Shown here: positions 1-16,682 of the stretch, one piece after another | How the letters are laid out: each line of letters starts with the position of its first letter | How positions within the stretch are numbered: position 1 is the stretch's first letter | IMG/VR virus record: IMGVR_UViG_3300045988_176357 | Span: 1 to 64,000 of that record | Origin: a virus | Strand: one strand, 5' to 3' | DNA: 64,000 nucleotides | Translations under genes and position numbers: made by a program | Notes under the pieces: model-generated | Told to the model about the DNA's origin: nothing | The model's database searches: none | The model's input: the letters and a program-made list of their open reading frames with translations, nothing else

Positions 1-66
1 AGAGAAACCTGGCGGTACGTAACGAGTACCGTTGAACAGAACCTTGGTGTGTACACATCAAGACAG
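1..66 (+). ncRNA. group I intron, 3'-terminal portion (5' part lies upstream of the window)
   Basis: nt 1-53 identical to 2468-2520 (3' end of the intron at 2222-2541). The nrdD reading frame resumes right after position 66. Ends in G. Confidence 0.55.
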
Positions 67-1654
67 TGGAGGACAAGTCGTGTTTTCGTCCATTAATCTG
101 GGAACATGTGTGAAGCCTGGCGGTCGCCTTGCTACAAAGGCGCTGCTTAAGGCTATCGACGACGGCATCGGAAAGGGTGTAACGTCGTTGTTCCCAATCG
201 TAATCTTTAAGTTGAAGGAAGGAGTAACATATAGTCCACAAGACCCGAACTATGATTTGCGTCTGTACTCAGAGCGTGTGACCGCCAAGCGCATGTTCCC
301 CAACTACAGCAACCTCGACGCTCCGTACAACCTCAAGTACTACAAAGAGGGACATCCGGAGACAGAAGTTGCTTACATGGGTATGGCAGCTGGCAAGCAT
401 AAGGTACTGCTGCAAGATCCCGACATCCCAATGGAGGGATATCCGAGTGACCAGAAGGATTTTGCCATGTATCAGATGACCTTCGAAGACCTCTGGTACG
501 CAGTTGTAAAACTCGGAGGCGTTGTACGTAAGTTCGATGATACTACAGAGTACGTCGATCTGGAAGCCGATAACGTTCGCGTGGTTGCTATCTATGGAAG
601 AGAGCCCGACAAGGATTCCATGGATTACCGCGCCAGAAAACTGACACGAGTGAGAAAGATCATGCGCTGCAGCAAACCTGCACAGGGGCACACGTGGAAA
701 GACGTGTATGTGTACGGAACTGAAGACGGAAGCTACACAAGTACAGAGAAGCCTGTACGTAAAGTTCTGACGCTCACCAGCGATCATCCTCTGGCTCTTG
801 TGAAAAAAGGCAGAACACAGGTATGCGACATTCAATACGGTGTGGCTGGCGACAGCCTGCGTACGTATGATGGGTGCACGCAGGTACTGGACATCAGAGA
901 CAGCTCTTACACAGGATACGGATACGACATTGAGACTTACTCAGATATGTTCGTGCTGGACGACGTCATCAGTCACAACTGTCGTACACGTGCCATATCC
1001 AACGTCAACGGTCCTGAGATCGTCACAGACAGAGGCAACCTCAGCTTCACGACGCTGAACCTTCCAAGGTATGCCATAGAGGCATCCAGAGAAGGAACCA
1101 GTGAAGAGGAGCGCATCGAGATCTTCTTCAAGAAGCTCGACAAGTACCTTGACATTGCACGCAGACAGTTGGAGCACAGGTACAAGATCCAGTGCAACCG
1201 CAAGGTGTATAATCTGCCGTATGTCATGAAGCAGGGAGCTTACATGGGATCCGAACATCTCAGTCCTGATGACACCATACGCAAGGCCATCGAGAACGGT
1301 ACGCTGTCGTTTGGGTTTGTCGGCTTAGCGGAAGCATTGGTGGCTCTGACTGGACACGACCACACCGAAGGCGAACAATACCAGCAGTTGGGTCTGCGCA
1401 TCGTGAAGCATATGAGGGACTATGCCGACAAGCTCACTGAGGAGCAGCACATGAACTGGTCACTCATTGCTACACCTGCAGAGAGCGTGGCAGGCAAGAT
1501 GCTTCGCAAGGATCGCGCTGAGTTCGGTGTGATACCTGGCGTGACAGACAAGGACTATTATACCAACAGTAACCACGTGCCTGTATGGAGGAAGATCAGA
1601 GCTTCTGAGAAGATTCGCTTGGAAGCACCGTATCATGAGTTGACAAACGCGGGT
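67..1654 (+). CDS. nrdD: anaerobic ribonucleoside-triphosphate reductase NrdD, internal exon
   Basis: Translation carries class III RNR motifs (GNLSFTTLNLPRYA, IATPAESVAGK, DYYTNSNHVPV, LEAPY..L.NAG). Frame is open from window start. Exon ends at U1654 where similarity to E. coli NrdD (FEAPYPPLANGG|FICYGE) breaks and an intron core begins. Confidence 0.8.
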
Positions 1655-1994
1655 TGTTATATGGCTCGCTTTAAACAAGGTGAACGCAAATCAAAGCGGT
1701 GTGCAGCATAAGCTGCGCTAACGGTATCAGTTAGATAAGCACAGACGAATACGCTGACTAAGAAACGCTACGGTCCAGCAATGGATAGCAGCCGATACCG
1801 TGCCAAGTAGAAGGATACATATGATTATATGGTCTTCTAAAGGTGTAGAGACTAAAATATCTGCAGCAAACATGACAACAAACAGACGTGCTCAGATAGA
1901 GAGGAAGGACAAAGATACCTTCCGTAGTGCCTTGCTCAGCTACATAGCTGAGAAGAGATAGTCCGACACATGCTCGAAAGAGTTGAAACAAAAG
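1655..1994 (+). ncRNA. group I intron interrupting nrdD
   Basis: 340-nt insertion between in-frame NrdD segments (..LTNAG | HIAYVECEGDP aligns to E. coli ..LANGG FICYGEYPN). Contains a P7-like pair: R-like gctgactaagaaacg and S-like agagatagtcc. 5' exon ends in U, intron ends in G. Confidence 0.65.
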
Positions 1995-2221
1995 CATATA
2001 GCATACGTCGAATGTGAGGGTGACCCGAGGCAGAATCTCGATGCCCTGCATACTTTGATAAACATCATGCATGACGCAGGCGCAGGATACTTCAGTTTCA
2101 ATCATAAGATTGACACATGTACTAACTGCGGTTACAATGGCATCATTGGTGATGTTTGTCCGAGTTGCGGACAGAAAGAGACGCCAAGTCATCCATTTGT
2201 ACGTCCGAGAAGAATAACTGG
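1995..2221 (+). CDS. nrdD: NrdD exon: C-terminal Zn-ribbon and glycine-radical region
   Basis: HIAYVECEG..CTNCGY..CPSCG..VRPRRITG matches the NrdD C-terminus (CxxC..CxxC then RVCGY glycine radical loop). The frame breaks right after RRITG. Confidence 0.75.
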
Positions 2222-2541
2222 GTCTATGATGGCCCCTTCACACCGCGAGGTGTGTCGAACAAGAAAGTGAATTGCTGGGACACCTTAACGGGTCATGCCG
2301 AAGGCAATCAGCATCCGAGCCATGCGTTCGACAGAACGCCAGCGCATGGAAGGTTCATCGACTATCCCGAAAGGGAGTACCCGACAAGTGAAGGGGAAGC
2401 ACTCTGGCTCAGGAATGAGTCAATGATATAGTCAGTGCACTGCAGAAATGCAGTGAGTGGTCTCGGGAGAGAAACCTGGCGGTACGTAACGAGTACCGTT
2501 GAACAGAACCTTGGTGTGTACAACATCAAGACAGATCTTAG
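2222..2541 (+). ncRNA. group I intron interrupting the nrdD glycine-radical motif
   Basis: 320-nt insertion. Joining ..ATAACTGG to TTACGAG.. restores RRITG-YENRFNSAKTAELNARVTHA (compare NrdD RVCGYLG..RPFNAGKQEEVKRRVKH). R-like ggttcatcgactatccc and S-like aatgatatagtcagtg. About 200 nt at the 5' end are nearly identical to 9170-9420. Ends in G. Confidence 0.7.
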
Positions 2542-2605
2542 TTACGAGAACAGATTCAACTCAGCCAAGACGGCTGAGTTGAACGCAAGGGTAACACATG
2601 CCTGA
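2542..2605 (+). CDS. nrdD: NrdD terminal exon
   Basis: Encodes (G)YENRFNSAKTAELNARVTHA then stop TGA. Overlaps the nrdG start by 8 nt. Confidence 0.6.
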
Positions 2606-3192: not shown

Positions 3193-3549
3193 ATGAAAGC
3201 AGCAGAGCTTGATACAAAAGACGTCACAGTAATACGTACAGAAAAACGGTACATACTCAATGAGAGCGTGTTCGAGCTGGACGAGTGTCCTGACTGGGCT
3301 CAGTACGCAGCTGTAGATGCCGATGGGGAAGCCTACTGGTACAGCGTAAAGCCGTCGCGCGTTGAAAGCGACTGGGTTGACTTTTATGGTCGTATCCGTT
3401 TAATCCGGGATGGTGATAACCCGGTCATTTTCGATGCTACCGGCTGGCAGCACAATCTTATCGAGCGACCCAGGAAGGCACTTGAGATTACCATGTCGGA
3501 CATTGAGAGGCAGTTTGGGTGCAAAGTGAAAATTGTAAAGGAGAATTGA
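3193..3549 (+). CDS. hypothetical protein; C-terminal domain is paralogous to 5552..6187
   Basis: Intact ORF with RBS aggaga. Its C-terminal 60 aa (WAQYAAVDADGEAYW..ATGWQHNLIERPRKALEITMSDIERQFGCKVKIVKE) recur in the 5552..6187 protein. Confidence 0.6.
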   Translation: MKAAELDTKDVTVIRTEKRYILNESVFELDECPDWAQYAAVDADGEAYWYSVKPSRVESDWVDFYGRIRLIRDGDNPVIFDATGWQHNLIERPRKALEITMSDIERQFGCKVKIVKEN

Positions 3550-5568: not shown

Positions 5569-6187
5569 CGATTTTATTGTCCTGTGCCTGATGCTGTCTA
5601 TTTTCTTGTTCTGTGCGATAACTTATATATTGGACAGGAGATTGAAGCGTGTTGAGAAAGAAGTTGCGCAACATATAGAGTCGCAGAAACAAGCTCTTAC
5701 TGAAGCCTTCTTCAGTCTACAGTATAATTTGGAAGACTATCCTGATGTGTTTGAACCTATGTGCCTGGTGCTCAAGTCGCTGAGCTTGTCTTATCCGAAA
5801 GTAAGGGCCGAGATTGGGGACGCATATGCCAAGTGTAGATCGGAGAGGAAGCTTAACAGACAAAGTAAGACACCTCAAAAGAAAAAGTTTGCGCTTGTAC
5901 CTGTTGTCTTCAGCTTACCGGAATGTCCAAGTGATGCCAACTGGGCAGCTGTGGATGCGGATGGCAGTGCGTATTGGTTTGTTGATAAGCCGGTCATTTC
6001 CGGAAAGTGCTGGGTACGACGTCAGACAAGCTGCGCGGCAAAGTGTATTCTCCCCGAAGCCTTTGATGCTACCGACTGGCAGCACAGCCTTATCGAGCGA
6101 CCCAGGAAGGTACTTGAGATTACCATGGCTGACCTGGAACGGAAATATGGATGTAAGGTCAAGGTTGTAAAGGAGGCACAGGTGTGA
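5552..6187 (+). CDS. membrane-anchored protein with a C-terminal domain paralogous to 3193..3549
   Basis: Intact ORF. N-terminal TM helix (FIVLCLMLSIFLFCAITYIL). The C-terminal 75 aa are homologous to the C-terminus of 3193..3549. Confidence 0.55.
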   Translation: MLIMTNDFIVLCLMLSIFLFCAITYILDRRLKRVEKEVAQHIESQKQALTEAFFSLQYNLEDYPDVFEPMCLVLKSLSLSYPKVRAEIGDAYAKCRSERKLNRQSKTPQKKKFALVPVVFSLPECPSDANWAAVDADGSAYWFVDKPVISGKCWVRRQTSCAAKCILPEAFDATDWQHSLIERPRKVLEITMADLERKYGCKVKVVKEAQV

Positions 6188-6413: not shown

Positions 6414-6593
6414 ATGAAACTTCTATATATAGGAATACCGTTGCTGATATGGACAATGTCAGCTGTCGGTATCCTGATATGTACTTACCTTAACTCAAAC
6501 AAGAACGCCGGACTTGAAAGATTCTTCTGGGGGTCGGGTATAACATCAGGTCTGTTGCTTGGTATGGGAGTAATAGCTACAAAGTTATTCTAA
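6414..6593 (+). CDS. small membrane protein
   Basis: ATG after RBS aaagga. Product MKLLYIGIPLLIWTMSAVGILICTYL.. has two TM helices. Confidence 0.4.
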   Translation: MKLLYIGIPLLIWTMSAVGILICTYLNSNKNAGLERFFWGSGITSGLLLGMGVIATKLF

Positions 6594-6603
6594 GAGAATA
6601 AAG

Positions 6604-7758
6604 ATGCTGAACCGTGAACTGTACAACAGACTTCGCACTGTGTTCAAAGATGTTCATGTGCAGTACGAGAATGTACAGCCCAAACTGAGACTGTTGCGAT
6701 GGCCGAGGCTGATCAACGGACAGCTGCGTGAGTGGGAATTCGACAGCAGAGGTTCAGGGGAGACGTACCAAATCAACTGTCCTGTATGCGGCGACAAGAA
6801 GGGGCACTGCTATATCTCGGCACTGTCTTTTACCAAGCCTCGTATAGGCGACCGCATCCTCACACCTGCACCTTTGCTCATACACTGTTTCAGGCGCAAC
6901 TGCTTCAGCGGTAATCCGGAAGCCAGGGAAGCTCTCACGCAGGTCCTCAAGTCCAGTACACCAATGGAACTTGATGTCGGCGAAGAGGATTGCTTCTCAG
7001 GTGCGCAGGAGCTGCAGCAGGACATACACAGGAACACAGAGGCGAACCTGCTTAAATGGCAGCCCGATTATCATCCCATAGATCATGATGCTCCTGCAGA
7101 GGTGCTTGACTATGTAGCCAAGCGCGGCATACAGGAACGTGACATCAAGGAACTCAAGATAGGGTGGGGTCGGTGCTGGAACTACAAAAAACAGAACTTC
7201 ATAGGCAACGGTAACTGGTTGCAGTTTCCTATCATCGATCAGGCCGGTCTCAGAGGCTTCCAGTCACGCCAGCTGCACAGCGACGGCAACCTGAAGTACT
7301 TCTTCGACACCAGAACACCCAAGAAGATGTGCCTATACAACAGAGAGCGTGCATCCAGCTTCCATATCGTAGCCATAGCCGAAGGCATCATCGATGCGCT
7401 CCATATAGGTCGCTGCGGCATGGCGTTCTTTGGGTTCGAGCCGAGTAAGGCACAGGTGCGTCTTCTGCAGCAGGACGGTGCGAAGCTGGTACTCTACATA
7501 CCAGACCAGAAGAAGCATTATACACCTGACGGTGTCTGTGACCTCGATCCGCCAAAGATAGCGGACACACACATAGAGCAGTGGCGCAGACAGCACCTGT
7601 TCGAGTGGGGCTGCTACAGAATCGATGTGCCGAGAGCTGATGCAGGGGAATGCACAACGGCGGAGATATGGGACGCCGTAGTGAAGCAGCTTGCCTACAA
7701 GTACAAGGTCGACGACTGCGTACTCGAAGTTCTGTTTAAACAACTGGAAAGAATATGA
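6604..7758 (+). CDS. DNA primase (Zn-finger plus TOPRIM, DnaG-like)
   Basis: CPVCGDKKGHCYIS..CFRRNC zinc finger and TOPRIM-like VAIAEGIIDALHIG. Confidence 0.7.
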   Translation: MLNRELYNRLRTVFKDVHVQYENVQPKLRLLRWPRLINGQLREWEFDSRGSGETYQINCPVCGDKKGHCYISALSFTKPRIGDRILTPAPLLIHCFRRNCFSGNPEAREALTQVLKSSTPMELDVGEEDCFSGAQELQQDIHRNTEANLLKWQPDYHPIDHDAPAEVLDYVAKRGIQERDIKELKIGWGRCWNYKKQNFIGNGNWLQFPIIDQAGLRGFQSRQLHSDGNLKYFFDTRTPKKMCLYNRERASSFHIVAIAEGIIDALHIGRCGMAFFGFEPSKAQVRLLQQDGAKLVLYIPDQKKHYTPDGVCDLDPPKIADTHIEQWRRQHLFEWGCYRIDVPRADAGECTTAEIWDAVVKQLAYKYKVDDCVLEVLFKQLERI

Positions 7759-7770
7759 AAGGAACATTAT

Positions 7771-9159
7771 GTGGCAAATTTAGCAACAATACAAAAGATA
7801 GCGAAAGTACGTGAGATCGACTCCACCAAGCGTGACATATGTGAATTGCGGTTCGAGGATTCCCTGTGGCATGTCGTAGGACAAAAGAACACATATAGTA
7901 TCGGGCAGCGTGTCGTCTTTTTCGCTCCTGGCAGTGTGATTCCAAAGGACACGGAAGCTTATAAGCACTTATGTGACTTTGTACGCAGTAACGCGAAAGG
8001 AATGGAAGTCACAGACGACTGCATTCATGTACACGCCTCGTCTGTAGGCATCAAGCATAAGACACACGGTCTGGTGCTTCCGCTTTCCTTGTTCCCTGAG
8101 CTGAAGAAGATGCCTGTTCGGTCAGATGTCACAGATCGGATCGGTGTTATTTCAGAGCGAGCGCTTAACACGAACGTAATTTGTGCCTCGCCTGATCTCG
8201 TTAAGCTGCCTCAGCCTGACTGGATACCTGCACGCAAGTTTGTCGACTTACGTGATCGTCCGGAAATGTTCGGCAGGTGCCAGCACTCGCGTTTCTATGG
8301 CGAGCTTATGGTCGACGGCAGCATTCCTGTTGCCGTGTACTGTGTAAGCGACAAATATGATGCGGATCGGTTTGGCGTCTGTGTCTTCGGCAACAAGATC
8401 AAGCGCCCAAGGTATTCGCAGGCAGAGATTAAGCGACTTCTGTATCAGCAGCCAAAAAAAGAACGGGGCTGTTTGCTGTCCCTGTGGGAATTGGCTGCGC
8501 ACTGCTGTCAAAGTCTGTGGCACTGGGCTACACATACCGATCAGGAGCTGCAGAAAGAACGGGACGAACAACAGCAGGAAGTGGACGATCTGGAACTTAT
8601 GCTGTTTGAGCGCAACGATCTGTGGAACACAATTGAGATCGAGAACATTGAACCAGCATTGAGCGAGTGGCAGCGCCGTACAGGGCGCAGCATAGTAGTC
8701 TTCTTCGAGTGGGTAGGACCTGACATACAAGGTAACCCGGAACGATATCCAGACCACAGACTGTATGCCAGTGATGTGTACGACTTGGATGGACAGAAGT
8801 GGCTGCTGCCCAAAGAACGTGAACTGTTCCTCGACGGTATCAGCAAACGGATACGCCAGGTAGTCAAGTGCTACCATGACTATCCCTTTGCAGGCAGCAG
8901 TGTTGACTCGACAATAGGTCTTGTAGCGGATATCTGCAATAACCGCAACACAGGGAAAAAGGGCATAATATTCAAGAGCTCGCAGGAACCTTATATGACT
9001 TTCAAGGTGCTCAGCGATCTGTACGGCAAGAAAACCAAAACGAGACTCAGCAAGGCAGCAACAGCCAATGACTACTTTGCTGCGCAGGAACGAAAGAGAA
9101 AGGAAAAGCAGGAAAGGTATCAAAAAGCGTATCCGCAGGCGAGACAGCCTGCAATGTGA
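7771..9159 (+). CDS. hypothetical protein (462 aa)
   Basis: Intact ORF with RBS. Lys/Glu-rich C-terminus. Ends with TGA exactly where the IStron-like element begins. Confidence 0.6.
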   Translation: MANLATIQKIAKVREIDSTKRDICELRFEDSLWHVVGQKNTYSIGQRVVFFAPGSVIPKDTEAYKHLCDFVRSNAKGMEVTDDCIHVHASSVGIKHKTHGLVLPLSLFPELKKMPVRSDVTDRIGVISERALNTNVICASPDLVKLPQPDWIPARKFVDLRDRPEMFGRCQHSRFYGELMVDGSIPVAVYCVSDKYDADRFGVCVFGNKIKRPRYSQAEIKRLLYQQPKKERGCLLSLWELAAHCCQSLWHWATHTDQELQKERDEQQQEVDDLELMLFERNDLWNTIEIENIEPALSEWQRRTGRSIVVFFEWVGPDIQGNPERYPDHRLYASDVYDLDGQKWLLPKERELFLDGISKRIRQVVKCYHDYPFAGSSVDSTIGLVADICNNRNTGKKGIIFKSSQEPYMTFKVLSDLYGKKTKTRLSKAATANDYFAAQERKRKEKQERYQKAYPQARQPAM

Positions 9160-9502
9160 TGCGCTTAAAGGTACCTTCACACCGCGAGGTGTGTCGAATA
9201 AGAAAGTGAATTGCTGGGACACCTTAACGGGTAATGCCGAAGGCAATCAGCAGCCGAGCTTATGGATGCCCGGACCGGGTGCCATAGGAAGGTTCATCGA
9301 CTATCCCGTAATGGGAGTACCCGAGCAGCCTTGCAGCGATAGCAGCAGAAGCAAGGGGAAGCACTCTGGCTCAGGAATGAGTCAATGATATAGTCAGTGC
9401 CTTGTGGAAACACAAGGAGTGGTCAGGAGTGACACCCTGAAACCTGGCAAGGTTTGGTACACCTTGCTGAACAGAACCATGGTAGTTAACACATCGACAA
9501 TG
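9160..9502 (+). ncRNA. group I intron moiety of the IStron-like element
   Basis: 9170-9420 is a near copy (point substitutions only) of nrdD intron 2230-2460, including R (ggttcatcgactatccc) and S (aatgatatagtcagtg) elements. The 3' part is diverged but shares aacctggc..gaacagaacc..acatc.aca. Confidence 0.65.
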
Positions 9503-9571
9503 AAATTGCGAACAATTACTTGAACTTTTAATATACATGCGTATATTATATGCGTACAAACAAGAGGTTCC

Positions 9572-10702
9572 ATGATAGCAAGCAGAGCACACAAGATAAA
9601 ACTCATGCCGACGCCTGAGCAGCAGGAGAAACTCCGCAGGAGATTTCTCCAAGGACAGGCGGTAAGGCACTTGTGCATCGAGTGGAGCTGTGAAATGTAC
9701 GCAGCCTGGAAACAGGACCCTGCGAACAATGCTTACCCATCATATGAAGCGATGGATAAGCGGTACACAAAGGAGAAGCCCGAGGAGGGCAACCTCCTTC
9801 CAAGGTGTTCAGCGCAGCGTAAGGTGCGCGACACCTGGAAGGCAGTGGAAAACCACATCAAGCACCCTGATAAGTACGCATGTCCGGATTACACCAAGAA
9901 GCGTGATGTACATGAGTACACGCTTTATGTGAACAATCAAGCGGCAGAAGTGGGCACAGATCACGGTAAGCCTTATGTTCACTTTCCAAAGCTCGGACTT
10001 ATTCGGCTCGCCGAGGAGTTCCGCTTCAAAGGTGCACGCATAATGTCGTACACCTTTTCGTGGGATTGTGTGGACATGTATGTGTCCATACAAGCGCAAG
10101 TTGAGGTTACTCCGATGTGCACCAACGACTCCACAGTTGGAGTCGATGTGGGTCTCAAGCACATTGCGGTCGCCTCAGATGGCACCACACTCGACTACCC
10201 GAAGGCGTACAAGAAGGCGCAGAAGCGTGTACGCGCGGAGCAGCGTAAGCTGCAGCGCAAAGTTCAAGACAGCAACAATTACTGGAAGCAGTACAGGCGT
10301 CTCAAAAAGGCGTACAAGAGAAAGGCGAACGTTATTAACGACGCCTTACATAAGTACACCACACGGCTATGCAAGACGCACAGCACAGTCGTCACAGAGA
10401 ACCTCAGTATTGCAGACCTTATCAAGACGTCCGAGAAGTGGATGCGAAGAGGCTTCGCCTTGTCCCAGATGAAGCGACTGATTCAGCTGCTTCAGTACAA
10501 GGCTGCCATCTACCGGCAGGTAGAACGATTCTTCGCGAGCAGCAAAACTTGTTCCCGCTGCGGCTACAAGAACAATGCGCTCACACTTGCGGATCGTACT
10601 TATGTGTGCCCCGAATGCGGCCTCCAGATAGACCGTGACCTCAATGCGGCGCACAATACACGCAATTTCATTGTAGGGTCGGTCAGACCCGATCTCCGGT
10701 AA
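9572..10702 (+). CDS. tnpB: IS200/IS605-family TnpB (RuvC-like RNA-guided nuclease, OrfB)
   Basis: 376-aa ORF. C-terminal Zn-finger and RuvC-III region CSRCGYKNNALTLADRTYVCPECGLQIDRDLNAAHN. Upstream RBS aagagg. Confidence 0.85.
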   Translation: MIASRAHKIKLMPTPEQQEKLRRRFLQGQAVRHLCIEWSCEMYAAWKQDPANNAYPSYEAMDKRYTKEKPEEGNLLPRCSAQRKVRDTWKAVENHIKHPDKYACPDYTKKRDVHEYTLYVNNQAAEVGTDHGKPYVHFPKLGLIRLAEEFRFKGARIMSYTFSWDCVDMYVSIQAQVEVTPMCTNDSTVGVDVGLKHIAVASDGTTLDYPKAYKKAQKRVRAEQRKLQRKVQDSNNYWKQYRRLKKAYKRKANVINDALHKYTTRLCKTHSTVVTENLSIADLIKTSEKWMRRGFALSQMKRLIQLLQYKAAIYRQVERFFASSKTCSRCGYKNNALTLADRTYVCPECGLQIDRDLNAAHNTRNFIVGSVRPDLR

Positions 10703-10738
10703 CGGAGGTAGCTCTTCCCTCTTTGAGGGTGAGAAGAT

Positions 10739-11035
10739 ATGCGGTACCTCCCCGGTACCGACTATCATGACAGTATGATAACAGTCGTATGTCCTAAGTG
10801 CAAAAGAGAGAATACGATGTGCGTATGTATGTCCAATGCCGAATGCTATGTACCCATTCTTGGAATCCAGGATGACGGTACTGTTGAATACGGCTGTACT
10901 GATATCAACGAGGGCGATAACGTCGCCTACGAATGCAGTGAATGCGGCTACAGACTTCGTATCAAACCCGATGCCTTTGACGACAAGTTTGTGGCATGGG
11001 CAAAGAAGCAGCAACAGAAAAGGGAAAAGAAATGA
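10739..11035 (+). CDS. small Zn-ribbon protein
   Basis: Intact ORF with CPKC..CSECGY motifs. Confidence 0.5.
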   Translation: MRYLPGTDYHDSMITVVCPKCKRENTMCVCMSNAECYVPILGIQDDGTVEYGCTDINEGDNVAYECSECGYRLRIKPDAFDDKFVAWAKKQQQKREKK

Positions 11036-11322
11036 GAAAGCGCAAACTCAAGTTCATCTGTCCTCATTGTAAGAAAGAGGCTCAGATCGTCGACGTTATG
11101 CAGGACGCAGAAGTGCACATGCCTGTCGACTATGTAGACACAGAAGGGTTCCTGCACTATGACAGACAGGAGCCCATGATCGTATCCAAGAAAGGCCACT
11201 TCGCATGTGACGAGTGCGGCGGCCGCATTCCTATCAGGACATCAGGATTCGCCAACAGGTACGATGCTCTTGTACATTATCTTGAGCGTCGCTTCTACAA
11301 CAGCGAGAAGCCATGCAAGTAA
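11032..11322 (+). CDS. small Zn-ribbon protein
   Basis: ATG overlaps the upstream stop (ATGA). CPHCKK..CDECGG motifs. Confidence 0.5.
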   Translation: MRKRKLKFICPHCKKEAQIVDVMQDAEVHMPVDYVDTEGFLHYDRQEPMIVSKKGHFACDECGGRIPIRTSGFANRYDALVHYLERRFYNSEKPCK

Positions 11323-11738
11323 CGACACTGCACGATAAGGCGCAGCAGCCTGAGCAGATTGCACTCGATGTATACCTGCTTAAAGTCGCATATACGACGG
11401 AGGCCGGTCCTCTGCTGTCTGTATTTGCAGGACTGTCGCTTGTTCTGCCGGAGGGCGCGTACGTCACAGTGCATCCTGTAGGCGAGCTGTGGCGGTATGG
11501 TCTGGTGGCGTGCAACGGTACTGCACTGTTTATGTCAGGCGAGCCCATTGCTGTGGACTTCTACAGGATAGGACCTGCAAACCTGACATTCACGCAGGGC
11601 ATGACATTTGCACGTATTGCTGTGCACAGATCAAGTGCAGTAAACACCAAGCCGGATGATACGCCTGCAGGCACAGCAACAGATGGAATAGAATTAACTA
11701 CAAGAACCGAGTCGGTTGAAGAACCCGAAATATACTAA
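11313..11738 (+). CDS. hypothetical protein
   Basis: Intact 141-codon ORF overlapping the upstream stop. Confidence 0.45.
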   Translation: MQVTTLHDKAQQPEQIALDVYLLKVAYTTEAGPLLSVFAGLSLVLPEGAYVTVHPVGELWRYGLVACNGTALFMSGEPIAVDFYRIGPANLTFTQGMTFARIAVHRSSAVNTKPDDTPAGTATDGIELTTRTESVEEPEIY

Positions 11739-11758
11739 TACACACAGGAGAAAAGCGA

Positions 11759-12490
11759 ATGGCGAAGAAAGTAGAAAAGAGAACGACGAAGAAGAGCCTG
11801 TCAAAATCAACACCGAAAACCAAAGTAAAGAAAACAGTTACCAGGAAAGCTGCACGCAAACCATCTGAACCAGCTGCTGTAAACATTCCTGTAAGTGCCT
11901 TCTATAAGTACATTTCAGGATGTATCGAAACACTGTACGGTACAGATGATCCTGCAGATCTCAGGGCGAAAGCTGCTGTTGGAAAGGAACTGGCGGAAAA
12001 AGCGTATATGGAAGCTGTTGTAAACGACCTCAAGGCAACAGAACTCAAGCACGCGCCTGCTGCCGACAAGATGCGCATAGTCAACGCTTCATTGGCACAA
12101 GCATGCTCTACGCTGCGCAAGATCGAAGCATCTAAGAAGGATGGGAGAACGCCTGAGAATATGCTGCGAATGTTGGCGAAATTCAGTGAAGGCATCGAAG
12201 GTCTTGAACACCTGACAAAGCTTTGCGCTTCCAGCAGCAAGGCATCGTACAAAGACATACTTGCACAAGAAAAGAAACTGAAAGCTGAAATAGATACATA
12301 TAAGCGTCTGGCAGCAGAGAAAGGCGAGGAGGCGACAGCAGAAGAGCTGGTTGTCAAAGCGTGTGCAGACATGAAAGCGAGAGCGGCAAAAAGTCTTGAA
12401 GACATCAAGACAGCAAAGCAAAAGGTCAAGGCTCTGGAAGGTGCGGCCCAGCTGCTTGAAAGGTTGGCTGCAGAGGCTGGCGAGGCCTGA
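11759..12490 (+). CDS. Lys-rich (histone H1-like N-terminus) coiled-coil DNA-binding protein
   Basis: N-terminus MAKKVEKRTTKKSLSKSTPKTKVKKTVTRKAARKP followed by an Ala/Lys/Glu-rich helical region. RBS aggag. Confidence 0.6.
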   Translation: MAKKVEKRTTKKSLSKSTPKTKVKKTVTRKAARKPSEPAAVNIPVSAFYKYISGCIETLYGTDDPADLRAKAAVGKELAEKAYMEAVVNDLKATELKHAPAADKMRIVNASLAQACSTLRKIEASKKDGRTPENMLRMLAKFSEGIEGLEHLTKLCASSSKASYKDILAQEKKLKAEIDTYKRLAAEKGEEATAEELVVKACADMKARAAKSLEDIKTAKQKVKALEGAAQLLERLAAEAGEA

Positions 12491-16604: not shown

Positions 16605-16682
16605 GGGACCGTAGCTTAGTCGGTTAGCAGCTGCTGACTCATACTCAGCCGGCCGCAGGTTCGAGCCCTGCCGGTCCCACCA
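16605..16682 (+). tRNA. tRNA-Met (anticodon CAT; elongator Met or Ile-lysidine type)
   Basis: Cloverleaf: acceptor GGGACCG/CGGTCCC, D-arm GCTT..AGC, anticodon stem GCTGA/TCAGC with loop CTCATAC, T-arm GCAGG TTCGAGC CCTGC. Encoded CCA. G1-C72 argues against an initiator. Confidence 0.85.

What the first reader, a model, noticed from the sequence alone, without database searches (positions are those of the whole stretch)
9160..10718. IStron-like chimera: a group I intron fused to an IS605-family tnpB
The 250 nt after the stop of gene 7771-9159 are a near copy of nrdD intron 2230-2460, including the conserved P7-forming R (GTTCATCGACTATCCC) and S (AATGATATAGTCAGTG) elements. This intron is followed 70 nt later by a complete tnpB (RuvC-III Zn-finger ..CPECGLQIDRDLNAAHN) and a subterminal hairpin. 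A group I ribozyme at the 5' end with an IS200/605 transposase-derived nuclease at the 3' end is the architecture described for IStrons. Here it sits in a TAG-recoding phage, and a tnpB-less derivative occupies nrdD.
Basis: partly seen in the sequence, partly recalled or inferred. Interest (0 to 1): 0.85.

Follow-up and report, generated by a model that had tools for sequence, protein, structure and literature searches.

The report
TnpB-carrying self-splicing intron in phage

Summary
Related contigs with an empty site show one insertion, window 9121-10773. It follows a U (AGGTAU|) and ends in G (CATGACAG|). The TGA at 9157 is therefore inside the intron, and the ligase ORF resumes at 10774 (YDNSRMS*).

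The 5' part passes Rfam's group I threshold. Its guide sequence pairs with the ligase exon through a U.G pair, and the family core shows strong covariation. tnpB (9572-10702) is intact and keeps the catalytic residues of ISDra2 TnpB. It lies in the loop of a 10-bp long-range stem that brings the 3' splice site back to the ribozyme. The last ~170 nt fold into a covarying omega-RNA-like scaffold ending at the 3' splice site, so the predicted guide is exon 2.

No TnpA is present. The element's right end abuts four different sequences in different contigs, each preceded by GTAT in uninterrupted DNA. A metagenome scan found 60 loci, mostly human gut, and about two-thirds of the intron copies carry a TnpB at this position.

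Verdict: a bona fide TnpB-only IStron resembling published group A. IStrons, including phage-borne ones, are already described. Splicing and cleavage are inferred, not shown.

The parts
7771..9120 (+). RNA ligase-like gene, exon 1. It ends ...CAG GAA AGG TAT.
   Evidence: Pfam RNA_ligase and PHA02142 OB-fold; PHROG 968 RNA ligase. Homologues align up to ...QERY and then continue YDNSRMS*. BLAST to the empty-site contigs stops at 9119/9120.
9121..10773 (+). The whole IStron (1,653 nt), absent from empty-site alleles.
   Evidence: L001 and L002 read ...GGTAC|TATGATAAC. Five other contigs read ...GGTAT|TATGATAAC. The window reads ...GGTAT[9121-10773]TATGATAAC.
9114..9121 (+). P1 5' strand: exon AAGGUAU plus the first intron base C. 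The 5' splice site is after U9120.
   Evidence: Pairs with 9170-9177, with U9120.G9171. Recovered as an 8-bp helix in the MFE fold of a tnpB-deleted construct.
9125..9166 (+). P1-loop extension hairpin (AAGCGUAUC...GAUGCGCUU with an inner GCAGGC/GCCUGC stem). It contains the in-frame TGA at 9157.
   Evidence: Found only in copies of this element. Relatives L013 and L053 have 4-nt P1 loops, so it is not a conserved left-end hairpin.
9170..9177 (+). Internal guide sequence GGUACCUU.
   Evidence: The nrdD copy has GGCCCCUU here, next to an identical P2, and that pairs with its own exon (GGGU|C). So the guide differs site by site.
9178..9467 (+). Ribozyme core: P2 9178-9193; P3 about 9202-9208 with 9362-9368; P4-P6 9211-9288; P7 9299-9304 with 9390-9395; P7.1 and P7.2 9304-9358; P8 9368-9383; P9 9400-9417; P9.1 9447-9467.
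   Evidence: Rfam alignment. In a six-sequence family alignment, 75 pairs are predicted and 41 have compensatory changes. MFE helices.
9478..9487 (+). 5' arm of the long-range 'IR' stem (CAUGGUAGUU).
   Evidence: Pairs with 10760-10769 (10 bp, 2 of them G.U). Relatives have CAUGGUAUC/GAUAUCAUG, with two compensated positions. The ORF-less nrdD intron has the same stem as a local hairpin, CUUGGUGU-GUACA-ACAUCAAG.
9520..9547 (+). Promoter-like site TTGAAC-16-TATATT upstream of tnpB; a ribosome-binding site (AGAGG) lies at 9562-9566.
   Evidence: A TTGAC(A)/TTGAAC box is at the same place in the relatives examined. Function is inferred.
9572..10702 (+). tnpB (376 aa, no in-frame TAG).
   Evidence: Pfam. 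Full-length alignment to ISDra2 TnpB (8BF8/8EXA), E 6.5e-32, with the catalytic motifs conserved (GVDVG, VVTENL, IDRD) and both CxxC pairs present.
10600..10773 (+). Predicted omega-RNA scaffold. It overlaps the 3' end of tnpB and ends at the right end. Stems: 10676-10690, 10694-10707, 10717-10729, 10742-10760; closing stem 10601-10605 with 10737-10741.
   Evidence: Nine-sequence alignment A2: 40 pairs predicted, 17 with compensatory changes. The function as a guide RNA is inferred.
10742..10760 (+). Right-end subterminal hairpin CGGUACC-UCCCC-GGUACCG.
   Evidence: Covaries across relatives: GCGGCTCC/GGAGCC, GGCTGTC/GACAGC, GAGCCAAC/GTTGGC.
10760..10773 (+). 3' arm of the IR stem (GACUAUCAUG) followed by ACAG. 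G10773 is the terminal G at the 3' splice site and the right end of the element.
   Evidence: Sequences of ten relatives diverge immediately after ...GACAG. The family-wide terminus is (A/T)TCAWGACAG.
10774..10797 (+). Ligase exon 2 (TAT GAT AAC AGT CGT ATG TCC TAA). The first ~16 nt are the predicted TnpB guide and target.
   Evidence: Encodes YDNSRMS*, as in the uninterrupted homologues. Identical in the empty-site contigs.
10775..11035 (+). Downstream 86-aa zinc-ribbon-like gene. Its ribosome-binding site (AGGAAAGG) is in ligase exon 1 and is brought next to the ATG only after splicing.
   Evidence: Called as 86 aa in L001 and L002. Sequences.
2224..2534 (+). ORF-less sister intron in nrdD. 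The splice restores ...RRITG|YLSYENRFN...
   Evidence: RF00028 at 40.3 bits. Reading frame and tblastn with an uninterrupted NrdD. Ends ...CATCAAGACAG.
1..66 (+). 3' end of another copy of the ORF-less intron, upstream in nrdD.
   Evidence: 1-55 is 100% identical to 2468-2522. NrdD similarity starts at 65-67.

Best explanation
Window 9121-10773 is a TnpA-less IStron that resembles the published group A (IS200/IS605-type) elements. It sits eight codons before the end of a phage RNA ligase gene.

Shown by computation:
- It is a single precise insertion relative to empty alleles.
- Its 5' part is a group I ribozyme with IA2-like P7.1 and P7.2 hairpins.
- Its guide sequence pairs with the ligase exon.
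- An intact tnpB, with its own promoter-like site, lies in the loop of a 10-bp stem next to the 3' splice site.
- The last ~170 nt are a conserved structured RNA that ends exactly at the element boundary.

Inferred:
1. In read-through transcripts of the ligase operon the ribozyme splices at U9120 and G10773. This restores ...QERY-YDNSRMS* and places the downstream gene's ribosome-binding site next to its ATG.
2. Transcripts from the internal promoter lack the ribozyme. They would yield tnpB mRNA and an omega-RNA whose guide is the first ~16 nt of exon 2.
3. TnpB with this RNA would cut intron-less alleles (5'-GTAT + TATGATAACAGTCGTA) in co-infecting relatives. Repair from the IStron-bearing genome would then copy the element in, which is RNA-guided intron homing.
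4. Splicing and omega-RNA formation would compete, because both need the segment 10760-10773.

How the element reaches new sites is unresolved. Its right end is found next to four different sequences, each preceded by GTAT in uninterrupted DNA. That fits IS200/605-type site choice by a TnpA supplied in trans. It also fits guide-sequence-directed reverse splicing, because GUAU pairs with GUAC in the guide sequence.
For: - Insertion and boundaries.
- Ribozyme: RF00028 at 54.1 bits against a gathering score of 50; 41 of 75 family pairs have compensatory changes; P1, P2, P4-P6, P8, P9, P9.1 and the long-range stem are all recovered in the MFE fold of a tnpB-deleted construct.
- Site-specific guide sequences next to an identical P2.
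- TnpB: full-length match to ISDra2 TnpB with the catalytic residues and zinc finger conserved.
- Omega-RNA-like scaffold: 17 of 40 pairs compensatory; sequences diverge right after GACAG, also in two intron-less copies, L008 and L050.
- IR stem covaries and persists as a hairpin in the ORF-less copies.
- Independent contigs carry the same element at the same site (L012, L054, L078, L098, L106).
- GTAT precedes all four right-junction sites; the motif's frequency is 0.0048 per position.
- Family: about 45 of 66 related intron copies in 60 metagenome loci carry a TnpB at the same position.
- The architecture matches published IStrons (PMC4227781; PMC10690162).
Against: - Nothing here shows RNA splicing or DNA cleavage.
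- The Rfam score is only 4 bits above threshold, and the model took the P1-loop hairpin for P1.
- I found no convincing P10 pairing with exon 2.
- Splicing may be dispensable. Unspliced mRNA still encodes the ligase with 12 different C-terminal residues in place of 7. The element's 3' end also supplies an in-frame ATG (10739) with a ribosome-binding site for the downstream gene.
- There is no TnpA in the element. A crude HUH/Tyr motif scan of the window and about 530 kb of related loci found no credible one. So homing explains maintenance but not arrival at new sites.
- No left-end hairpin is conserved across relatives.
- The GTAT motif rests on four junctions. Two of them (L098, L106) could be assembly collapses between repeated copies.
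Confidence: 0.78

Rival explanations
1. Two independent elements nested by chance. A TnpB-only insertion sequence landed in the terminal loop of an ordinary phage group I intron. It moves, or decays, on its own and does not mobilise the intron.
For: The same TnpB, omega-RNA and right-end module occurs without any ribozyme in L008 and L050. ORF-less introns of the same family exist. A 153-nt fragment with only the omega-RNA and right end is inserted on its own in L112.
Against: In the intron-less copies the element still ends at ...GACAG. So in the chimera the right end, and therefore the start of the guide, is the 3' splice site, and the predicted target is the exon junction rather than the intron loop. 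Empty sites lack both the ribozyme and tnpB. No ligase allele with an ORF-less intron at this site was found. TnpBs of four lineages sit at the same intron position in about 45 copies.
Confidence: 0.1
2. An immobile relic. The insertion is tolerated because it disrupts only the last 8 codons, and the ribozyme, TnpB or both no longer work.
For: The unspliced ORF ends 12 codons into the element. An alternative in-frame start for the downstream gene lies in the element's 3' end. No TnpA is present.
Against: tnpB is a full-length ORF with all catalytic and zinc-binding residues. The ribozyme core matches the spliced nrdD copy, which interrupts the essential glycyl-radical motif of NrdD and so must splice. 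P1 is complementary to this particular exon over 7 bp. Copies in five other contigs are 98-99% identical.
Confidence: 0.08
3. Spread to new sites is by reverse splicing directed by the guide sequence, not by any DNA transposase. TnpB only maintains or drives copies that are already established.
For: All four right-junction sites follow GUAU, which pairs with GUAC of the guide sequence. No TnpA was found.
Against: In a sister lineage the identical intron 5' end, with its guide sequence GGACUCC, is inserted after ...CAGCGTT in the ligase gene (L003, L024) and after ...CTTAGTT in nrdD (L123). Only 3-4 bp of P1 are possible there, which fits DNA-level insertion after a short motif better. The 153-nt fragment in L112 has no ribozyme and still lies after GTAT. 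No reverse transcriptase was looked for.
Confidence: 0.15

Closest known systems
Group A IStrons (CdISt1 of Clostridioides difficile and relatives; IS200/IS605 type; PMC4227781, PMC10690162)
   Same: - Group I ribozyme with IA2-like features at the 5' end.
- tnpB (ORF B) downstream on the same strand.
- Element ends coincide with the splice sites.
- The 5' exon ends in U, which forms U.G inside P1.
- A short, compositionally balanced stem loops out the IS part (published range 6-10 bp; 10 bp here).
- No target duplication.
- Insertion after a short motif ending in AT.
- Terminus ...CAG.
- ORF-B-only copies are known.
   Different: - No TnpA and no TnpA remnant; only 84 nt separate the stem from tnpB.
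- Target motif GTAT rather than TTGAT, ATTAT or TTTAT.
- Terminus ACAG rather than TCAG.
- No left-end palindrome conserved across relatives.
- The host is an uncultured TAG-recoded phage, not a Firmicute or Fusobacterium chromosome.
- The TnpB is only about 30% identical to any TnpB in GenBank phages.
Group B IStrons (BcISt1, CboIStron; IS607 type), including CbISt3 and CbISt4 in Clostridium botulinum phages c-st and D-1873
   Same: Phage-borne IStrons already exist. The omega-RNA overlaps the 3' splice site, which gives the antagonism between splicing and guide RNA. ORF-less derivatives keep only the IR stem-loop, as the nrdD copies do here.
   Different: Group B elements have a serine-recombinase TnpA, insert after GG, splice after G, end in CGG and have long AU-rich IR stems. 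The window element has none of these. Some sister elements in related contigs do splice after G: their P1 is GGAG-CUUAACAA-CUCC, and the boundary is fixed by the window acting as the empty site for L079.
ISDra2 TnpB with its omega-RNA (PDB 8EXA, 8BF8, 8H1J)
   Same: Full-length homology (E 6.5e-32) and the same catalytic motifs. The guide RNA is encoded over the 3' end of tnpB and the right end. The target would be a short motif followed by the right flank.
   Different: ISDra2 is a plain IS with TnpA and the motif TTGAT. It has no ribozyme, and its insertion is not removed from host mRNA.
Phage group I introns with protein homing endonucleases (T4 td and nrdD/sunY, Twort introns)
   Same: Self-splicing introns in phage nucleotide-metabolism and replication genes. 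The nuclease gene is looped out of a peripheral stem. Spread is expected by cutting intron-less alleles during co-infection.
   Different: Here the nuclease would be RNA-guided and its guide would be the flanking exon, so specificity would follow the element to any new site. The nuclease module also exists as a free insertion sequence.

Membership tests
IStron (group I intron fused to an IS200/IS605- or IS607-family element) | A group I ribozyme occupies the 5' part of the element. | tested here: met
   RF00028 at 54.1 bits against a gathering score of 50. The family alignment has 41 of 75 pairs with compensatory changes.
IStron | An IS200/IS605-family ORF B (tnpB) lies downstream on the same strand, inside the element. 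| tested here: met
   Pfam OrfB_IS605, Cas12f1-like_TNB and HTH_OrfB_IS605. Full-length match to ISDra2 TnpB.
IStron | The element boundaries coincide with the splice sites, and removing the element regenerates the host ORF. | tested here: met
   Empty-site contigs and about 39 uninterrupted ligase clusters. The junctions are U|...G|.
IStron | A stem (IR stem) encloses the IS part and brings the 3' splice site to the ribozyme. | tested here: met
   9478-9487 pairs with 10760-10769. Compensatory changes are seen in relatives, and a hairpin version is present in the ORF-less copies.
IStron | A TnpA transposase (ORF A), or a remnant of one. | tested here: not met
   There is no room between 9488 and 9571. 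Crude motif scans were negative. Published IStrons include ORF-B-only copies (PMC4227781 Table 1), so this does not exclude membership.
IStron | The element splices itself out of host RNA. | not testable with these tools
   Only structural prediction and exon-guide complementarity are available.
IStron | Dispersed copies at unrelated loci. | tested here: met
   At family level: ligase (two sites), nrdD, DNA polymerase A and others, in 60 metagenome loci. The window itself has one tnpB-bearing copy.
Group A IStron (IS200/IS605 type) | The 5' exon ends in U, and its U.G pair is flanked by base pairs inside P1. | tested here: met
   U9120.G9171, with A9119-U9172 on one side and C9121-G9170 on the other.
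Group A IStron | [quoted passage not shown] | tested here: inconclusive
   The flank is GGTAT. Four right-junction sites all follow GTAT. This is a fixed short motif ending in TAT, but not one of the published pentanucleotides.
Group A IStron | The 3' terminus is TCAG. | tested here: not met
   The terminus is ACAG. The family-wide form is TCAWGACAG.
Group A IStron | Subterminal palindromes at both ends of the kind recognised by a Y1 TnpA. | tested here: inconclusive
   The right-end hairpin is present and covaries. The candidate left-end hairpin (9125-9166) is absent from relatives L013 and L053.
Group A IStron | Intron of subclass IA2 (P7.1 and P7.2, extended P9). | tested here: inconclusive
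   Two hairpins lie between P7 and P3', and P9, P9.1 and a terminal stem are predicted. No subgroup-specific model was available.
TnpB / OMEGA RNA-guided nuclease | RuvC Asp-Glu-Asp triad and a CxxC...CxxC zinc finger. | tested here: met
   The motifs GVDVG, VVTENL and IDRD align to the ISDra2 catalytic positions (the Asp residues to D191 and D361). CSRC and CPEC are present.
TnpB / OMEGA RNA-guided nuclease | An omega-RNA scaffold over the 3' end of tnpB and the right end, with the guide taken from the flank. | tested here: met
   Conserved structure with 17 of 40 compensatory pairs, ending where the sequences diverge. Binding and guiding were not tested.
TnpB / OMEGA RNA-guided nuclease | TAM-dependent cleavage of the vacant site. 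| not testable with these tools
   The predicted target, GTAT followed by TATGATAACAGTCGTA, exists intact in five contigs.

The most novel reading that the evidence does not exclude
In this uncultured, TAG-recoded human-gut phage lineage (contigs up to 191 kb), TnpB-carrying group I introns are the main mobile intron type and spread as RNA-guided homing elements without any TnpA.

On this reading, the omega-RNA takes its guide from the downstream exon, so each new insertion retargets the nuclease by itself. The ORF-less nrdD introns are deletion derivatives. Fragments with only the omega-RNA and right end can also move. Synonymous GTAC alleles at the ligase site are variants that escape both the GTAT motif and the U.G pair.

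Some relatives carry in-frame TAG codons in tnpB. If so, the nuclease could be made there only once the phage switches its genetic code late in infection.
Probability: 0.3. Interest if true: 0.75.

Novelty: new member of a known kind. Interest (0 to 1): 0.52.

Why it matters
IStrons are the only known elements in which one transcript must choose between being a ribozyme and being a guide RNA. So far they have been studied in Clostridia and Bacillus.

This copy, and the roughly 45 related copies found here, put the same architecture in large gut phages with a reassigned stop codon. In phages, co-infection gives a natural setting for RNA-guided intron homing.

The element is compact and lacks TnpA. 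Its predicted target (GTAT plus 16 nt) is defined, and natural empty and occupied alleles are available. It could therefore be synthesised and used to test whether TnpB alone can drive an intron through a phage population.

The result also explains part of the gene fragmentation that complicates annotation of such phages. No paper in the searchable library describes IStrons in this kind of phage. That library is incomplete, so the family-level claim needs a proper literature check.

Tried and rejected
- First P1 assignment. Taken from the Rfam alignment, AAGCGU|AUC pairing with GAUGCGCUU put the splice site at 9130. The empty-site contigs place the boundary at 9120, and that helix is a P1-loop extension.
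- First 3' splice site for the nrdD intron. I placed it at ...AACCTTG|G and read 9481 as an internal 3' splice site in the IStron. A second nrdD copy (window 1-66) and the reading frame put the end at ...AAGACAG|.
- Idea that the GGTACC in the right-end hairpin mimics the guide sequence. The hairpin sequence differs freely among relatives, so this is a coincidence.
- Motif 'ANGNAY', derived from three 5' flanks of elements with different TnpBs. Dropped in favour of GTAT, which comes from four junctions of this element itself.
- P10 pairing between exon 2 and the sequence 5' of the guide: none found.
- Searches that gave nothing useful:
  - TnpB peptide patterns in IMG/VR.
  - blastn of 7771-11322 against GenBank phages; only a 55-nt chance-level hit.
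  - Right-end pattern in IMG/VR; all 20 hits unrelated.
  - A 16-mer intron pattern in IMG/VR; 34 of 36 hits were chance.
  - Rfam E-value scan of 11.4-64 kb; no further intron.
- The contig of P0124, which might have shown an ORF-less allele at this site, ends inside the intron.
- Pfam finds nothing in the 199-aa NrdD insertion.
- Phage taxonomy could not be fixed. The primase is at most 28% identical to any GenBank phage. The resemblance to Zeta-group crAss-like phages (PMC7886860) is a conjecture only.
Full report
**1. What is there**

Rfam's group I intron model hits window 9121-9417 on the + strand at 54.1 bits (gathering score 50, E 6e-11). A relaxed scan also finds the nrdD copy at 2214-2455 (40.3 bits) and a weak hit at 1645-1986 (19 bits).

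The two strong copies share several near-identical blocks: 86 nt at 97%, 72 nt at 89% and 28 nt at 93%. Between these blocks the peripheral stems differ by compensating changes. The P7-forming element GGTTCATCGACTATCC occurs only in these two places.

ORF 9572-10702 is a 376-aa TnpB with Pfam hits to OrfB_IS605, Cas12f1-like_TNB and HTH_OrfB_IS605. It aligns over its full length to ISDra2 TnpB (PDB 8BF8/8EXA, E 6.5e-32). The catalytic motifs (GVDVG, VVTENL, IDRD) and both CxxC pairs are conserved.

**2. True boundaries**

The gene at 7771-9159 is an RNA ligase-like protein. Of 43 homologue clusters at 79-98% identity, about 39 end ...KEKQERYYDNSRMS. Only two (P0121, P0124) end ...QERYQKAYPQARQPAM like the window. 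The peptide YDNSRMS* is encoded in the window at 10774-10797.

Contigs L001 and L002 carry an uninterrupted allele. They align to the window at 94% over 6587-9119 and 10774-12129, with nothing in between. The insertion is therefore 9121-10773 (1,653 nt):

...GAAAGGTAT | CAAAAAGCG ... CATGACAG | TATGATAAC...

It follows a U and ends in a G, as group I splice sites do. The TGA at 9157 is intronic.

**3. The ribozyme and its splice sites**

- Exon bases AAGGUAU (9114-9120) pair with GUACCUU (9171-9177). U9120.G9171 is at the splice site and C9121-G9170 extends the helix.
- An MFE fold of a construct with tnpB replaced by a tetraloop recovers this 8-bp P1. It also recovers a hairpin in the P1 loop (9125-9166), P2, the P4-P6 arm, P8, P9 and P9.1.
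- The Rfam alignment had taken the P1-loop hairpin for P1.
- The nrdD copy has GGCCCCUU where the ligase copy has GGUACCUU, next to an identical P2. Each pairs with its own exon. Other family copies show the same match between exon and guide.
- An alignment of six family introns gives 75 consensus pairs, 41 of them with compensatory changes. P7 (GACUAU/AUAGUC) is invariant.
- Two hairpins lie between P7 and P3'. This is the IA2 hallmark, but no subgroup model was available to test it.
- I found no convincing P10.

**4. How tnpB is accommodated**

The nrdD intron ends at 2534. That splice gives ...RRITG-YLSYENRFN..., which restores the glycyl-radical motif. A second copy ends at window position 66, and the two copies diverge right after ...CATCAAGACAG.

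These ORF-less copies finish with an 8-bp hairpin, CUUGGUGU-GUACA-ACAUCAAG, followed by ACAG. In the ligase element the same stem is long-range. CAUGGUAGUU (9478-9487) pairs with GACUAUCAUG (10760-10769), again followed by ACAG|. Relatives with 48-60% identical TnpBs have CAUGGUAUC/GAUAUCAUG, so two positions are compensated.

The tnpB module is thus the 'loop' of the last intron stem. This is the IR stem that Tourasse et al. describe for IStrons (6-10 bp in group A). It is also what their ORF-less BcISt1 derivatives retain (PMC4227781).

**5. The 3' end as a guide RNA gene**

I aligned the last 200 nt of nine elements: the window, L005, L051, L006, L007, L013, L053, L008 and L050.

- The consensus fold has four hairpins and a closing stem. 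Of its 40 pairs, 17 have compensatory changes.
- In the window it spans about 10600-10773, and the tnpB stop codon sits in a hairpin loop.
- All sequences end (C/T)TATC(A/G)(T/A/C)GACAG and diverge completely after it.
- This holds for L008 and L050 too, which carry the same TnpB module with no ribozyme upstream. So the right end of the IS part is the G of the 3' splice site.

By analogy with ISDra2 and the Clostridium IStrons (PMC10690162), the guide would be the first ~16 nt of exon 2, TATGATAACAGTCGTA. That target is intact in nine empty-site contigs. In five it is preceded by GGTAT and in four by the synonymous GGTAC.

Splicing would cut the scaffold from the guide, and the 3' arm of the IR stem lies inside the scaffold. 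The antagonism reported for Clostridium IStrons should therefore apply here too. This is an inference.

A promoter-like TTGAAC-16-TATATT (9520-9547) lies downstream of the ribozyme, and a similar -35 box is present in the relatives examined. Transcripts starting there could not splice, so they would be dedicated to TnpB and the guide RNA. This is also an inference.

**6. Consequences for the host genes**

Splicing would restore the last seven residues of the ligase. It would also place the ribosome-binding site AGGAAAGG (in exon 1) five bases from the ATG of the next gene (10775-11035, 86 aa in L001).

Without splicing, the ligase ends 12 codons into the intron. The next gene could then start at an in-frame ATG at 10739, which has its own ribosome-binding site inside the element. 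The insertion may therefore be tolerable even when splicing is poor, and that weakens any argument from necessity.

**7. Mobility**

The element has no tnpA, and no room for one. A crude HUH/Tyr motif scan of the window and of about 530 kb of related loci (592 kb in all) found nothing credible.

The 5' junction of this element is seen only at the ligase site. The right end...GGTACCGACTATCATGACAG, abuts four different sequences:
- window-equivalent 10774 (several contigs);
- 10963 (L098);
- 11926 (L106);
- a position inside the promoter region of another IStron (L112).

In uninterrupted DNA, GTAT precedes each of these positions: AGGTAT|, TTCGTAT|, GATGTAT| and GGATGTAT|. GTAT occurs at 0.0048 per position, so three further coincidences are expected at about 1e-7.

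In L112 the insert is only 153 nt, equal to window 10621-10773 at 99.3% identity. It is a fragment holding just the end of tnpB, the omega-RNA scaffold and the right end.

A fixed 4-nt target fits IS200/IS605 behaviour and group A IStrons, whose targets also end in AT. But GUAU also pairs with GUAC of the guide sequence, so reverse splicing is not excluded. L098 and L106 may be real right-end-adjacent deletions, second copies, or assembly collapses across the repeat.

**8. The family**

A scan of public metagenome contigs with a 26-base intron pattern returned 60 loci, many of them labelled human gut. One source contig is 191,643 nt and carries at least three TnpB-bearing and three ORF-less copies.

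- Of 66 intron copies, about 45 are followed roughly 100 nt later by a TnpB. The TnpBs fall into four lineages.
- Hosts include the ligase gene at a second site, nrdD, DNA polymerase A and others.
- The window itself is the empty site for two of these elements. One inserts after 8904, as in L003 and L024. The other inserts after ...GATATCAACGAGG, near 10912, as in L079.
- One sub-family has the P1 form GGAG-CUUAACAA-CUCC and splices after G, as group B IStrons do.
- The tnpB genes in L013 and L051 contain in-frame TAG codons. Two of these align to Gln in the window's TnpB.

**9. The genome**

On the + strand from 22.3 to 59 kb, ORFs are long only if TAG is read through. Examples are 2,066 codons with 97 TAGs and 965 codons with 26 TAGs. 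Collagen-like repeats remain in register with TAG read as Q.

The early region 1-13 kb, tnpB included, has essentially no in-frame TAG: among ORFs of at least 250 codons there is a single TAG, at the upstream edge of one reading frame. The primase and RNA ligase hit phage families. One related contig is in IMG/VR (L024). No close relative exists among GenBank phages.

The high intron density, late-gene recoding and roughly 190-kb size recall the Zeta-group crAss-like phages of Yutin et al. (PMC7886860). I did not test that assignment.

**10. Comparison with what is known, and verdict**

The element meets the structural definition of an IStron. It is closest to group A. It differs in lacking TnpA, in its target motif (GTAT) and in its terminus (ACAG).

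Several related things are already published:
- IStrons in phages, namely C. botulinum phages c-st and D-1873 (group B).
- ORF-B-only IStrons.
- The idea that TnpA-less IStrons could spread by intron homing (PMC4227781, PMC13565253).

TnpB genes are also common in GenBank phages (377 records). I found no paper in the held library that describes IStrons in this kind of gut phage.

I therefore rate this as a new member of a known kind, of moderate interest. Splicing, guide-RNA formation and cleavage all remain to be shown experimentally.

Noticed in passing
window 1-2605: nrdD is split several times. One family intron ends at 66. A 340-nt interruption at 1658-1997 has only a weak group I score (19 bits). 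The ORF-less intron is at 2224-2534. An in-frame ~199-aa insertion at 383-979 replaces nothing in an uninterrupted NrdD and ends ...VISHN|C, which looks intein-like, but it has no Pfam hit.
   Followed up: partly
window 22300-59000, + strand: Late-region ORFs are open only if TAG is sense (up to 97 in-frame TAGs in one 2,066-codon ORF), and TAG read as Gln keeps collagen-like repeats in register. ARAGORN finds only a tRNA-Met (16605-16682), so no suppressor tRNA is present in this window.
   Followed up: partly
window 8904/8905 and about 10912/10913: The window is the empty site for two other IStrons found in related contigs. One inserts in the ligase gene after ...AGCAGTGTT, as in L003, L004, L024 and L085. 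The other inserts in the 86-aa gene after ...GATATCAACGAGG, as in L079. The second type splices after G, as group B IStrons do.
   Followed up: partly
window 10739-10775: The element's 3' end contains an ATG (10739) with a ribosome-binding site (GAGGGTGA), in frame with the downstream gene's own start at 10775. This could keep that gene translated from unspliced RNA.
   Followed up: no
L112 1-449: A 153-nt copy of window 10621-10773 (the end of tnpB, the omega-RNA scaffold and the right end; 99.3% identical) is inserted precisely after GGATGTAT inside the promoter region of a different IStron. It is a fragment holding only the guide-RNA and right-end part.
   Followed up: partly
L098 and L106 (3' junctions), equivalent to window 10963 and 11926: The same IStron, with the ligase 5' flank, is joined at its right end to sequence 189 nt or 1,152 nt further downstream. 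Each time the join comes just after a GTAT in the reference. These could be adjacent deletions, second copies or assembly collapses.
   Followed up: partly
L013 about 1545; L051 about 1027 and about 225: tnpB genes of related IStrons contain in-frame TAG codons, two of which align to Gln in the window's TnpB. These nuclease genes have therefore evolved under the phage's altered code. The window's own tnpB has none.
   Followed up: partly
L081 about 7855-7895: Just after a tRNA-Met gene lies a tRNA-like 5' half (GCTCCCATAGTTTAATGGCAGAACAGCGGACTCT). A family intron follows it, and its guide sequence pairs with ...CUCU. This may be an intron-containing tRNA whose anticodon starts CU. The contig's 3' flank is ligase exon 2, so the contig may be a chimera.
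   Followed up: no
L001, L002, L115, L130 versus L076, L079, L103, L120, L123 (ligase empty site): Empty alleles come in two synonymous forms, GGTAC|TATGAT and GGTAT|TATGAT. The C form would break both the GTAT motif and the U.G splice-site pair, so it may be a resistant allele.
   Followed up: no
window 3430-3543 and 6062-6175: A 114-nt direct repeat (82% identity) lies at the 3' ends of two different + strand ORFs. It is unrelated to the introns.
   Followed up: no
clusters P0121 and P0124: The two IStron-interrupted ligase clusters hold 147 and 161 member sequences. The uninterrupted clusters hold 1-24 each. The interrupted allele is therefore the one most often sampled.
   Followed up: no
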